Shown here in pieces: positions 33,901 through 36,900 of a stretch of 44,690 bases of DNA (position 1 is its first letter; each line of letters starts with the position of its first letter). Position numbers: made by a program. Location: UHGV virus genome UHGV-0128395; one strand, written 5' to 3'. This stretch comes from a virus.

Positions 33901-36900
33901 GATGGAAATTATTTCGTTCTGAATAGCTTATTCCGCGCATATCTCCAACGACCCAGCACTCTGCTGTAGCCCCAAAAGATATGAATAAGAACATAGCAGT
34001 AAGAAATTGCTTCACACCAACCTCCTTAGTTTTGCGCAGGATACCATGAAAAAAGTTAACATTGGAAACGTACCAAAGATGCTCGTTCCGCTCTTTGAGA
34101 GCGGTACAATTGTGTTTTGTAGAGACTTTCCAGAATGGCAACGCCTGCATCAAAAACTTGGCGTTGACGTGCATGACTCGGACGCCAACGGAGCGTCTCA
34201 TACAATGAGTAGCGAGAATGGTGTTTTGCATGTGATAGGCGTGTTCAATGGCAAACTATCTACTATTGCCCATGAGTGCGCTCATATGGCATTCGATATC
34301 TGCTCAAGGGTAGGTGTTGATGTTGAACCAGGAAGAGCCAACGAGACTTACTGCTACTTAATGAGCAGGCTTGTTGAGTTCTGCGAGCGACATATCAGAA
34401 AGCCGGAGTGACCCGGCTTGATTATTACTTTTTGCTGTCTGGAGTTCGCTTATCCAATACCCAGCCATGACCTGGCTTTGTTGTTGGTGGAAGCCTTTCG
34501 TTGTCCTTGACGGTTGCAAAATTGTCTTTCTTACCGCCGCGTGGGCCAACTTCTTGGTATATTCCGCCGTTTTTTCCTGTGTTTTCACCTGGTTTTTTCG
34601 CCATGATATACCTCAACATACACCCGTTATTGGGCGATTAAATATTGATCTCATTTTGTAAGTAGTCAATATGGCCCAGGTAAATGCAAAAATTAACCCA
34701 CCTTCAGGTGGGTTTTTTGTACAAATCCTTCAGCGTATCAAACACCATCTTCTTAACAAGCTCTGACTGCTCATCAGCGATGCGTTCCGCATCGTCTCGA
34801 TAGCCTGAAATTTTGGATGGCTTTGATACAGCATCAGTCACTATCTGAACTAATTCTGAATTAAGAGAGCGGCCATTGGATTTGGCTCGCTGTTTTAGTT
34901 TTTCCTTTAATTCGTAAGGTAGCCGCAGATTAAATTGCGGGTCATCTCTTCCCATTCTTGATGCCTCGCTTTTGTGAGTGGATCGGCATCTTATTATCTG
35001 CTGGTTGCATCCTCAATAAGACCACAGTGGTCTCTTTGTTTGATTAATAATGCATCACTGTGGCAATGCTGCGGCGATTCCTTGTATCTGGAGCAAATTA
35101 AATGACAGACATTACAGCCAATGTTGTAGTGAGTATGCCTTCGCAACTCTTCACTATGGCGCGTTCTTTTAAAGCCGTAGCCAATGGCAAAATTTATATC
35201 GGTAAAATTGACACTGACCCGGTAAATCCTGAAAACCAGATTCAGGTTTATGTAGAGAACGAAGACGGTTCTCACATTCCTGTTTCGCAACCAATAATGA
35301 TTAACGCTGCTGGATATCCGGTATATAACGGACAGATTGCCAAATTCGTAACCGTGCAAGGCCATTCTATGGCTGTTTATGATGCGTATGGTACACAGCA
35401 GTTCTATTTTCCTAATGTGCTGAAGTATGATCCTGATCAGTTACGGCAGCAATTAGAAGACCCAGATGGAGCGAATAAATACCCAAAACTTCAGATAGCA
35501 AGATGGAGAGACAGTTATGATGTAAGAGGTTGGGGGGCTATTGGTGATGGTGTTCATGATGATACATCAGCTCTATCAGAATTACTTTCTGTTGCAACAG
35601 GTGGTGAAAAGATAGATGGGCGAGGGCTTACTTTTAAAGTATCAACTCTTCCAGATGTCAGTCGATTTAAAAATGCTCGTTTTTTATTTGAGAGAATACC
35701 GGGTCAGCCTCTTTTTTATGCTTCTGAAGATTTTATCCAGGGAGAGTTATTTAAAATTACAGATACACCGTGGTACAACGCCTGGACGCAGGATAAAACG
35801 TTTGTATATGACAATGTCATCTATGCGCCTTTTATGGCTGGAGACCGCCATGGTGTAAATAACCTCCATGTTGCATGGGTTCGCTCAGGAGATGACGGGA
35901 AGACCTGGACAACGCCGGAATGGCTTACAGATTTACATGAAAACTATCCCACAGTTAACTATCACTGCATGAGTATGGGGGTTGTCAGAAATCGCCTTTT
36001 TGCTGTAATTGAGACGCGGACCGTGAGCGGAAATAAACTGCAGGTTGCAGAGTTGTGGGATCGCCCAATGAGTCGCAGCCTTCGCGTTTATGGTGGTATA
36101 ACGAAAGCAGCAAATCAGCAAGTCGCTTATATTCGCATTACTGATCACGGATTATTTGCTGGTGATTTTGTCAACTTCTCAAACTCTGGTGTTACAGGTG
36201 TTACCGGGAATATGACGGTGACTACTGTTATTGATAAAAATACTTTTACAGTTACGACGCAAAATACCCAGGATGTGGATCAGAATAACGAGGGTAGATA
36301 CTGGAGTTTTGGTACATCATTTCACTCGTCACCATGGAGAAAAACCAGTCTTGGAACTATTCCTTCTTTTGTTGACGGAAGCACTCCTGTTACTGAGATT
36401 CACAGTTTTGCGACGATTAGCGATAACAGTTTTGCTGTTGGCTACCATAATGGTGATATTGATCCACGCGAGCTTGGGATACTCTATTTCTCTGATGCTT
36501 TCGGTTCTCCTGGTAGCTTTGTTCGCAGACGCATACCTGTAGAATATGAGGCGAATGCATCTGAGCCATGTGTAAAATATTATGATGGCATTCTGTATCT
36601 GACGACCAGGGGGACATTAAGTACTCAACCCGGTAGTTCATTGCACAGAAGCTCTGATTTAGGTACATCATGGAATTCTCTTCGCTTCCCAAATAATGTT
36701 CATCACTCAAACCTTCCTTTTGCCAAAGTTGGCGATGAGCTGATTATTTTTGGCAGTGAGCGCGCATTTGGTGAGTGGGAAGGAGGAGAACCTGATAACC
36801 GTTATGCAGGAAATTATCCAAGAACATTTATGACCAGAGTTAACGTCAATGAGTGGAGTCTGGATAATGTAGAGTGGGTTAATGTTACTGATCAGATTTA

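What the first reader, a model, noticed from the sequence alone, without database searches (positions are those of the whole stretch)
34046..34411. Small HExxH (ImmA-like) protein divergent from paralog B
A 121-aa ORF carries IAHECAHM, resembling the active-site helix of ImmA/IrrE-type metallopeptidases that cleave repressors. Its ATG is only ~30 bp from the divergent start of paralog B, so their promoters must overlap each other's 5' ends. This suggests a coordinately regulated two-gene accessory module in the immI position.
Basis: partly seen in the sequence, partly recalled or inferred. Interest (0 to 1): 0.65.

Follow-up and report, generated by a model that had tools for sequence, protein, structure and literature searches.

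The report
Small conserved zinc-protease-like phage gene hkcC
The ORF is hkcC, a known but uncharacterised gene of P22-like phages, and it encodes a very small protein with an invariant zinc-protease signature. It belongs to a large unstudied phage family, is not an ImmA-type repressor protease, and is not functionally tied to its divergent neighbour.

Summary
Window 34046-34411 (+) is a 121-aa ORF carrying IAHECAHM, and its ATG lies 30 bp from the GTG start (34015) of the divergent 'paralog B'.

The ORF is hkcC. It is 98% identical to P22/HK620 hkcC, whose function is unknown, and it sits in the 'ant moron' (immI) between gene 16 and the tailspike of a CUS-3-like E. coli prophage. It is clearly coding: among 33 alleles, variable sites fall 1/3/26 by codon position.

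A library search gave 413 matching cluster representatives. In an alignment of 132 of them, H76, E77 and H80 are invariant, E100 is present in 131 and Y104 in 122. This is a gluzincin-type signature (HExxH-x19-ExxxY) on a confident AlphaFold model with a β-β-α-β-β-α-α order.

It is not an M78/ImmA member. No HMM hit was found, hhalign aligned only 15 columns, and there is no partner HTH repressor. The phage's own repressor is an S24 self-cleaver. The weak affinities are to SprT-like zincins.

Most distant homologues examined sit co-oriented in late operons, between the lysis and terminase genes. In this window that accessory slot holds a Tad2-like gene.

The pairing with B is not a module. The same promoter/SD/GTG cassette carries at least 11 unrelated cargo genes, and 34 of 96 copies lack hkcC.

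Most likely role: an accessory lytic-cycle metallopeptidase. The substrate is unknown.

The parts
34046..34411 (+). hkcC coding sequence (121 aa plus stop). It encodes a minimal zincin-like protein and runs in the late-operon direction.
   Evidence: ORF list. 98.3% identity to HK620/P22 hkcC. PHROG 1365, E 6.6e-39. Variable sites 1/3/26 by codon position in 33 alleles. AlphaFold2 pLDDT 88.
34271..34285 (+). HECAH (H76-E77-x-x-H80): the putative zinc-binding and catalytic motif, on helix 71-88.
   Evidence: Invariant in 132 of 132 aligned family members. Helix assignment from the model.
34340..34360 (+). NETYCYL (N99-L105). E100 is the putative third zinc ligand, 20 residues after H80. Y104 is a putative transition-state-stabilising residue at the start of helix 100-114.
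   Evidence: E100 in 131 of 132; Y104 in 122 of 132, with H in 8; C103 in 106 of 132. Helix 100-114.
34013..34076 (-). Conserved leftward expression cassette. It holds a sieA-type promoter lying on hkcC codons 1-10, SD AAGGAGG (34021-34027) and the GTG start (34013-34015) of the cargo gene.
   Evidence: The P22 record BK000583 annotates the sieA promoter at the homologous 31 nt. Apart from two positions just upstream of the SD, the sequence is identical in window, P22 and HK620 up to the GTG, then diverges. The 42-nt core was found in 93 viral contigs with at least 11 cargo families.
33626..34015 (-). 'Paralog B': the cargo gene at this cassette. It is a 129-aa predicted secreted protein (signal peptide, then ECW..., and a C-terminal Cys). 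It occupies the position of P22 sieA.
   Evidence: PHROG 2651, unknown function. No similarity to SieA or HkcB.
34400..34419 (.). Bidirectional stem-loop terminator overlapping the hkcC stop codon.
   Evidence: Terminator scan. Annotated as tORF59A (bidirectional) in HK620 and as the mnt terminator in P22.
34425..34604 (-). orf59a/HkcD-like small ORF. It is part of the conserved hkcC-orf59a-mnt block.
   Evidence: PHROG 3202, E 2.4e-31. Weak YjzC-like hit. P22 orf59a annotation.
34704..34955 (-). mnt (Arc/Mnt ribbon-helix-helix repressor). arc and ant are absent.
   Evidence: Pfam Arc 2.8e-22 and Repressor_Mnt 2.2e-18.

Best explanation
The ORF is hkcC, a real, translated accessory gene of P22-like phages.

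It encodes a cytoplasmic protein of about 120 aa. The protein is a minimal gluzincin-type zinc metallopeptidase: H76 and H80 of HExxH, together with E100 on the next helix, would hold the zinc. E77 would be the catalytic base and Y104 would stabilise the transition state.

It belongs to a large, uncurated, phage-specific family (PHROG 1365) that is distinct from ImmA/IrrE (M78).

It is transcribed as part of the late operon, by read-through from the late promoter, rather than from its own promoter. It is therefore made during lytic growth. There it most likely cleaves a host or competing-element protein (counter-defence or host modulation), not the phage's own repressor.

Its 5' end also houses, on the opposite strand, the promoter of an exchangeable leftward 'cargo' gene, which here is paralog B. 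That overlap is architectural and not a functional partnership.

Shown: gene identity, coding selection, motif invariance, fold confidence, genomic contexts and cargo exchange.

Inferred: zinc binding, proteolysis, timing of expression and the nature of the substrate.
For: - Identity and synteny with hkcC (PMC2629481).
- Purifying selection: 23 codons vary only synonymously against 5 with amino-acid changes.
- Family breadth: 413 clusters at 50% identity, nearly all 110-140 aa.
- Conservation: H76/E77/H80 invariant, E100 in 131 of 132, Y104 in 122 of 132 with H in 8.
- Model: pLDDT 88, with a β-β-α-β-β-α(HExxH)-α(E) order as expected for a minimal zincin.
- Weak sequence hits go only to zincins. 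SprT-like sub-threshold hits occur in 21 of 132 members, along with M48, DUF5700 and reprolysin. Myroilysin and astacins score E 0.04-0.3.
- BFVD structural neighbours are small phage proteins. Three are named SprT-like or metalloprotease.
- Late-operon context: 7 of 7 distant homologues are co-oriented and within 3 genes of terminase or portal. At least 12 of 26 IMG/VR loci show lysis, homologue, terminase in that order. The epsilon34/ST64T paralogue is in the same slot.
- In this window that slot holds a Tad2-like anti-defence gene.
- Late transcription reads through the ant moron.
- Accessory status: hkcC is absent from 34 of 96 cassette copies, and only 328 of 5426 E. coli genomes carry it.
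Against: - No curated HMM reaches threshold.
- I could not inspect model coordinates to check the ligand geometry.
- Zinc binding, catalysis and substrate are untested.
- Late expression is inferred from orientation and literature on P22, not measured. The simple promoter scan is insensitive: it also missed the sieA-type promoter.
- The counter-defence idea rests only on slot-sharing and patchy distribution.
- In two N4-like phages the homologue lies in a block of small ORFs divergent from terminase, so timing may differ between lineages.
Confidence: 0.6

Rival explanations
1. ImmA/IrrE-like anti-repressor protease. HkcC would cleave a repressor (the prophage C2/CI, Mnt, Arc, or repressors of resident heteroimmune prophages). 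It would act with paralog B as an immI accessory module.
For: - HExxH plus a downstream Glu, small size and phage origin resemble M78 enzymes.
- The gene sits in the immI/ant moron next to mnt.
- In one lineage (L036, L038) a homologue lies about 400-500 bp downstream of an ANT/Rha antirepressor gene.
Against: - No PF06114 hit in 133 proteins, whereas the control scores 6e-14.
- hhalign aligns only 15-16 columns.
- IrrE-named BFVD hits score only E 0.04, TM 0.28.
- No adjacent HTH partner. The phage repressor has its own S24 autoprotease domain.
- Most homologues examined lie between lysis and terminase genes in phages without mnt/ant.
- B is one of at least 11 interchangeable cargos.
Confidence: 0.07
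2. Morphogenesis or packaging-associated protease. HkcC-family proteins would process or be packaged with virion, ejection or terminase proteins. This would explain their position next to terminase/portal genes and, here, next to ejection-protein gene 16.
For: - Proximity to TerS, TerL and portal in most contexts.
- One weak homologue sits directly after portal, in the slot usual for a prohead protease.
- Some members carry basic C-terminal tails.
Against: - The position within the module is not fixed: before TerS, between TerS and TerL, after TerL, after portal, or in the ant moron.
- The gene is dispensable: it is absent from many P22-like phages with syntenic virion genes.
- The ant moron is described as having no role in morphogenesis (PMC2629481).
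- From general knowledge, P22 assembly involves no proteolytic maturation.
Confidence: 0.12
3. SprT/Spartan-like DNA-dependent protease. It would remove proteins covalently or tightly bound to DNA during replication or packaging.
For: - SprT-like is the commonest weak Pfam hit: 21 of 132 members, best 1e-4.
- BFVD neighbours are named SprT-like.
- hhalign with E. coli SprT spans 81 columns including the N-terminal sheet.
Against: - All hits are below threshold. The hhalign probability is 7%.
- There is no conserved third His. The family has Glu instead.
- There is no zinc ribbon or DNA-binding domain in the 121-aa protein.
- No match to Spartan or Wss1 in the PDB searches.
Confidence: 0.08
4. 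The ORF is conserved mainly as regulatory DNA (leftward promoter at its 5' end, bidirectional terminator at its 3' end). The protein would be unimportant or not made.
For: - The curated P22 record annotates only a promoter and a terminator here, with no CDS.
- The first 15 nt or so persist even where hkcC is gone.
Against: - 26 of 30 variable sites are at third codon positions.
- Homologues with an invariant motif exist in unrelated phages that lack these regulatory elements.
- The AlphaFold model is confident.
Confidence: 0.02

Closest known systems
HkcC of phages HK620 and P22 (PHROG 1365; 'gene of unknown function' in the ant moron)
   Same: 98.3% amino-acid identity. Same position between gene 16 and mnt/tailspike. 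Same flanking promoter, terminator and orf59a.
   Different: Nothing material. Only the leftward neighbour differs: paralog B here, sieA in P22, hkcB in HK620.
ImmA/IrrE metallopeptidases (MEROPS M78, Pfam PF06114), e.g. Sfi21 orf122
   Same: Small phage-encoded proteins with HExxH and a downstream acidic ligand. They work as single-domain zincins.
   Different: No HMM or profile similarity beyond the motif helix. No cognate HTH repressor next door. Late-operon rather than lysogeny-module location.
SprT-like zincins (Pfam PF10263; E. coli SprT/YggI, Spartan, Wss1)
   Same: This is the best, though sub-threshold, sequence and structure affinity. The N-terminal sheet plus HExxH helix layout is similar.
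   Different: The third ligand is Glu (E100), not His. No zinc ribbon. Scores are below the family cut-off (15.7 against 25.6 bits).
Thermolysin-type gluzincins and 'minigluzincins' (proabylysin/projannalysin; from my own knowledge)
   Same: HExxH followed 20 residues later by an (N)E on the next helix, the same spacing as thermolysin H146 to E166. Minimal size of about 110-120 aa.
   Different: No detectable sequence or structural match to any solved gluzincin. The signature is ExxxY rather than ExxxD.
PF18894 'Putative phage metallopeptidase'
   Same: Another uncharacterised phage HExxH protein. In loci L036, L038 and L040 it lies immediately downstream of the HkcC homologue.
   Different: Unrelated apart from HExxH: hhalign probability 1%. 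About 214 aa.

Membership tests
ImmA/IrrE (Peptidase_M78, PF06114) | Significant match to the M78 domain model | tested here: not met
   No hit for the protein at E<=1, or for any of 132 family members at E<=0.1. The positive control, Sfi21 orf122, scores 6e-14.
ImmA/IrrE (Peptidase_M78, PF06114) | Profile-profile similarity extending beyond the HExxH helix | tested here: not met
   hhalign of A2 against the M78 exemplar or alignment gave 15-16 aligned columns, probability 13-15%. The M78 alignment had low diversity (Neff 1.5), so sensitivity was limited.
ImmA/IrrE (Peptidase_M78, PF06114) | HExxH plus a downstream Glu ligand | tested here: met
   H76/E77/H80 invariant; E100 in 131 of 132. The feature is shared by all gluzincins, so it is not diagnostic.
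ImmA/IrrE (Peptidase_M78, PF06114) | Adjacent cognate HTH (ImmR/XRE-type) repressor gene in the lysogeny module | tested here: not met
   The neighbours are a secreted cargo protein, orf59a and the RHH repressor Mnt. Distant homologues lie by terminase/portal genes. The prophage repressor at 8996-9625 is HTH+S24. Compare Sfi21, where orf122 abuts the HTH repressor.
ImmA/IrrE (Peptidase_M78, PF06114) | Site-specific cleavage of a repressor | not testable with these tools
   Needs co-expression and in vitro cleavage assays.
SprT-like (PF10263) | Match at or above the gathering score | tested here: not met
   21 of 132 members hit below threshold, best E 1e-4. One example scores 15.7 bits against a cut-off of 25.6. 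The window protein itself has no hit.
SprT-like (PF10263) | Third zinc ligand His shortly after HExxH | tested here: not met
   No conserved His downstream of H80. The conserved ligand candidate is E100.
SprT-like (PF10263) | Structural similarity to SprT/Spartan-type domains | tested here: inconclusive
   BFVD hits named SprT-like score E 1.3e-4 and 6.3e-4, TM 0.5-0.7. No Spartan or Wss1 appears among the PDB hits. hhalign against E. coli SprT gives probability 7% over 81 columns.
Gluzincin-type zincin (clan MA(E)) | HExxH on an α-helix, with Glu on the following helix about 18-30 residues downstream | tested here: met
   Helix 71-88 carries HECAH. Helix 100-114 starts with E100, 20 residues after H80.
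Gluzincin-type zincin (clan MA(E)) | Fold match to a solved zincin; zinc coordination geometry | tested here: inconclusive
HkcC / PHROG 1365 | Sequence match and conserved synteny | tested here: met
   PHROG 1365 E 6.6e-39 over the full length. 98.3% identity to HK620/P22. Same neighbours.
Fixed two-gene module hkcC + paralog B | Co-inheritance of the two genes | tested here: not met
   The same cassette carries at least 11 unrelated cargo families. B-type cargo occurs both with and without hkcC. hkcC is absent in 34 of 96 copies. Only 21 of 328 hkcC-bearing E. coli genomes have the full B+hkcC stretch.

The most novel reading that the evidence does not exclude
HkcC would define a new, phage-wide family of minimal (about 120 aa) gluzincin metallopeptidases with the signature HExxH-x19-ExxxY. 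The family is absent from Pfam and NCBIfam and has no solved relative. Its members would act as lytic-cycle counter-defence or host-takeover proteases. They occupy the same accessory slots as known anti-defence genes such as Tad2, and one of them has sat unannotated in phage P22 for decades.
Probability: 0.3. Interest if true: 0.65.

Novelty: new variant of a known kind. Interest (0 to 1): 0.42.

Why it matters
P22 is a model phage, yet this conserved ORF is not even annotated as a CDS in its curated record, and no function is known.

Recognising it as a probable minimal zinc protease gives a concrete, testable handle: point mutants of four residues, and substrate trapping. The family is widespread, with 413 clusters at 50% identity. 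It spans temperate enterobacterial phages, N4-like phages and, by predicted-structure similarity, other virulent phages.

If the substrate is a host defence or housekeeping protein, this would add a proteolytic mode to the phage counter-defence repertoire.

The analysis also corrects a tempting mis-annotation (ImmA-like). It further shows that the apparent divergent gene pair is really a fixed promoter/RBS/start-codon cassette into which different envelope-protein morons are swapped.

Tried and rejected
- Pfam, NCBIfam and PADLOC scans of the protein gave nothing.
- PDB sequence search with the close-homologue profile gave nothing. The deep profile gave only marginal metzincin hits.
- The afdb50 library was unavailable.
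- A full-text search for 'hkcC' found only genome-description papers that call it unknown.
- I suspected the P22 pid ORFan might be this locus. It is not: pid lies between orf25 and orf80.
- The BTP1 transcriptome paper does not cover this region. It does not mention sieA, mnt or immI, and it describes STnc6030 as antisense to the injection gene and the tailspike gene, with no ant moron between them.
- Searches for phage SprT-like or metalloprotease anti-defence literature gave nothing relevant.
- The second word-indexed homologue search with the deep alignment added little.
- The third search, for M78 relatives, returned only relatives above 80% identity, so the M78 profile was shallow.
- Longer family members showed no informative fused domains.
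- The association with ANT/Rha and with PF18894 turned out to be confined to one lineage.
- The Rfam scan found only the att-site tRNA.
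Full report
**What is there.** Window 34046-34411 (+) is an ATG-initiated ORF of 121 codons: MKKVNIGNVPKM...IAHECAHMAFDICS...GRANETYCYLMSRLVEFCERHIRKPE. On the opposite strand, a perfect Shine-Dalgarno AAGGAGG (34027-34021) is followed 5 nt later by GTG at 34015. The two start codons are 30 bp apart. B is a genuine paralogue of an ORF at about 8595-8996 (-): 28% identity, E 1e-10. HExxH occurs nowhere else in long stop-free stretches of the window. It appears in 2.5% of shuffles of this protein, so the motif alone is only suggestive.

**Identity and setting.** The window is a P22-like prophage of E. coli.
- The upstream gene (31760-33601) occupies the position of P22 gene 16.
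- mnt follows at 34704-34955 (Pfam Arc and Repressor_Mnt).
- Next comes a tailspike with a P22 head-binding domain fused to an endosialidase, the architecture of the K1-specific phage CUS-3 as I recall it.

The ORF is 98.3% identical to hkcC of HK620 and P22 and belongs to PHROG 1365, function unknown. Villafane et al. (PMC2629481) list hkcC and 59a as the two genes of unknown function in the P22 'ant moron' (immI region). So the 'immI position' statement is right, and the gene itself is already known as an ORF. The curated P22 record BK000583 does not annotate it as a CDS. It places the sieA promoter on the first 31 nt of the ORF and the mnt terminator on its 3' end.

**Is it a real protein?** Yes. 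Among 60 hkcC copies (33 distinct alleles) recovered from viral contigs, variable sites number 1, 3 and 26 at codon positions 1, 2 and 3. Twenty-three codons vary only synonymously and 5 change the amino acid. An exhaustive profile search found 413 cluster representatives (50% identity clusters) at E<=0.001. Nearly all are single-domain proteins of 110-140 aa.

**The motif.**
- In 19 close homologues, H76-E77-C-A-H80 is invariant and N99-E100-T101 nearly so.
- In 132 diverse members, some with only about 21-30% identity, H76, E77 and H80 are invariant.
- In the same set, E100 is present in 131, Y104 in 122 (His in 8), and G49, F67 and G90 in more than 90%.
- HExxH is found in 169 of 176 retrieved sequences. 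Six of the seven exceptions look like frameshifted or truncated fragments, and one has HKAAH.

The family signature is therefore HExxH-x19-(N)ExxxY. The Glu lies 20 residues after the second His, the same spacing as in thermolysin-type gluzincins (my knowledge). The Tyr/His one helical turn later is the kind of residue that stabilises the transition state in many zincins (inference).

AlphaFold2 with the 19-sequence alignment gives a confident model (pLDDT 88, pTM 0.83). Its order is β11-13, β21-25, α28-37, β49-56, β59-66, α71-88 (HExxH) and α100-114, which starts at E100. This is the element order of a minimal zincin.

**Which family?** Not ImmA/IrrE by any test I could run.
- Pfam PF06114 does not hit the protein or any of the 132 members.
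- A bona fide phage M78 protein, Sfi21 orf122, scores 6e-14.
- hhalign of the family profile against that protein, or against an alignment of its relatives, aligns only 15-16 columns around HExxH, probability 13-15%. The M78 alignment was shallow.

The only recurrent weak Pfam signal is SprT-like: 21 of 132 members, best E 1e-4, all below the gathering score. Single members hit other zincins (M48, DUF5700, DUF4344, reprolysin).

Foldseek against predicted viral structures finds 24 hits at E<=1e-3. They are small, mostly uncharacterised phage proteins from temperate and virulent phages, including Ralstonia RSJ2, Achromobacter Motura, Erwinia Wellington, Salmonella nenneke and crAss-like phages. 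Two are named SprT-like and one metalloprotease. IrrE-named proteins appear only at E 0.04 with TM 0.28. Unlike SprT, Spartan and Wss1, the family has no conserved third His and uses Glu. hhalign to E. coli SprT covers 81 columns but with probability 7%.

I conclude that this is a distinct, uncurated zincin family with gluzincin-type ligands and a loose SprT-like resemblance.

**Genomic context of relatives.** All seven distant homologues looked up lie co-oriented within late operons, within three genes of terminase or portal. The positions seen were:
- between the lysis cassette and TerS;
- between TerS and TerL;
- after TerL;
- after portal.

In 26 IMG/VR loci, at least 12 show lysis, homologue, TerS/TerL/portal in that order on one strand, and 18 have packaging genes nearby. 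P22-like phages epsilon34 (gene 70), ST64T, ST104 and L carry a 38-40% identical paralogue in exactly that lysis-terminase slot, and some phages have both copies. None of these contexts has an adjacent HTH repressor.

In this window the lysis-terminase slot holds a Tad2-like (Thoeris anti-defence 2-like) gene at 18555-19154. Epsilon34 has a Tad2-like fragment in the same slot as its hkcC paralogue. In two N4-like phages the homologue lies in a run of small same-strand ORFs divergent from the terminase block. That layout suggests an early region, though I did not verify this.

The prophage's own repressor (8996-9625, -) is an HTH+S24 self-cleaving CI type. It therefore needs no ImmA-type protease.

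**Transcription.** hkcC points the same way as genes 20 and 16 and the tailspike. [quoted passage not shown] The parsimonious reading is that hkcC is a late-operon passenger. The consensus scan found no plus-strand promoter upstream, but it also missed the sieA-type promoter, so this is weak evidence. The stem-loop at 34400-34419 overlapping the stop codon is the bidirectional terminator annotated in HK620 and P22.

**Relation to paralog B.** An alignment of window, P22 and HK620 on the minus strand shows the sequences are identical, apart from two positions just upstream of the SD, through the hkcC 5' end, the intergenic 30 bp, the SD and the GTG. They diverge completely from the first codon after GTG. 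The three downstream proteins (B, SieA, HkcB) are unrelated.

I scanned IMG/VR for the 42-nt core of this cassette. The 93 contigs found, together with the window, P22 and HK620, gave 96 cassette copies.
- Downstream of the shared GTG there are at least 11 unrelated ORF families: HkcB-like, another 109-aa type, B-type, SieA, and 75-, 62-, 106-, 149-, 99-, 140- and 68-aa types. Most have hydrophobic N-termini.
- hkcC is intact in 60 of the 96 copies.
- It is replaced in 34 copies, where homology ends about 15 nt after the ATG and a different plus-strand ORF follows.
- B-type cargo occurs both with and without hkcC.

Only 21 of 328 hkcC-bearing E. coli genomes carry the full B+hkcC stretch. But the pair is not a co-inherited or evidently co-functional module. 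hkcC is more tightly linked to orf59a and mnt.

**Most likely mechanism.** HkcC is a cytoplasmic, zinc-dependent endopeptidase made during lytic growth. H76, H80 and E100 would bind zinc, E77 would activate water and Y104 would assist. It acts on a substrate in trans. It is dispensable, patchily distributed and found in accessory slots shared with anti-defence genes. It also has structural relatives in virulent phages. For these reasons I favour a host or competitor protein as the substrate (counter-defence or host modulation) over a repressor or a virion protein.

| Claim | Probability |
| --- | --- |
| Real gene | about 0.97 |
| Zincin-type metalloenzyme | about 0.8 |
| Counter-defence or host-directed role | about 0.35 |
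| Virion or packaging role | about 0.12 |
| SprT-like DNA-linked protease | about 0.08 |
| ImmA-like repressor protease | about 0.07 |

**Verdict.** The gene is already known as an ORF. What is new is the recognition of an invariant gluzincin-type catalytic signature in a large uncurated phage family, together with its accessory-slot genomics. Interest is moderate.

Noticed in passing
window 34013-34076 (- strand); loci L044-L136: A fixed promoter/SD/GTG cassette, embedded antisense in the first codons of hkcC, is joined exactly at the start codon to at least 11 unrelated cargo ORF families across 96 copies. They include SieA, HkcB and paralog B, and most have hydrophobic N-termini. It looks like a swap point for exclusion-type envelope morons with the recombination joint at the initiation codon.
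   Followed up: yes
window 8595-8996 (-) and 33626-34015 (-): Paralogs A and B are both predicted secreted proteins: a signal peptide, then ...ECW..., and a Cys near the C-terminus. A sits directly downstream of the CI-type repressor gene, in a rexAB-like slot. B sits in the sieA slot. Both slots are typical of genes expressed in the lysogen, so these may be a new superinfection-exclusion or conversion protein family (PHROG 2651, unknown).
   Followed up: partly
window 18555-19157 (+): A 200-aa protein with a Tad2-like (Thoeris anti-defence 2-like, PF11195) domain lies between the lysis genes and the small terminase gene.
   Followed up: no
window 15638-16780 (-): A complete Gram-negative porin gene (Porin_1, E 2e-151) lies inside the prophage on the strand opposite to the neighbouring phage genes. 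It is a porin moron.
   Followed up: no
window 35102-38047 (+): The tailspike is a P22 head-binding domain fused to a full endosialidase with the S74 chaperone domain. The prophage therefore looks like a K1-capsule-specific, CUS-3-like phage.
   Followed up: partly
window 34704-35101: mnt is retained but arc and ant are missing. Only about 146 bp separate mnt from the tailspike start, so the Mnt operator/Pant region may now sit directly in front of the tailspike gene.
   Followed up: no
window 39182-40575 (-): An ORF of integrase-like size and position (397 aa, not family-scanned) is followed by a tRNA gene (40504-40575). This is probably the prophage attachment site and the end of the phage.
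   Followed up: no
loci L036, L038, L040 (for example L038 5739-7986): In one lineage the HkcC homologue is preceded by a 79-aa ORF and immediately followed by a second, unrelated HExxH protein of Pfam PF18894 ('putative phage metallopeptidase'), with overlapping stop and start. In L036 and L038 an ANT/Rha antirepressor-type gene lies further upstream. All of this sits just before the terminase genes.
   Followed up: partly
public records BK000583/NC_002371, GQ422450, KR296688, OY978778: The annotation of this gene is inconsistent. There is no CDS in the curated P22 records. UAB_Phi20 calls sieA as 236 aa, overlapping hkcC by 186 bp. KR296688 labels the gene 'GNAT family acetyltransferase', and a Klebsiella phage homologue is labelled 'tail length tape measure protein'.
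   Followed up: no
proteins P0075, P0082, P0151, P0167: Some family members carry a 50-60-residue Lys/Glu/Ala-rich C-terminal tail with a basic end (for example ...VPRIARYKRG). It could be a nucleic-acid-binding or capsid-targeting extension.
   Followed up: no
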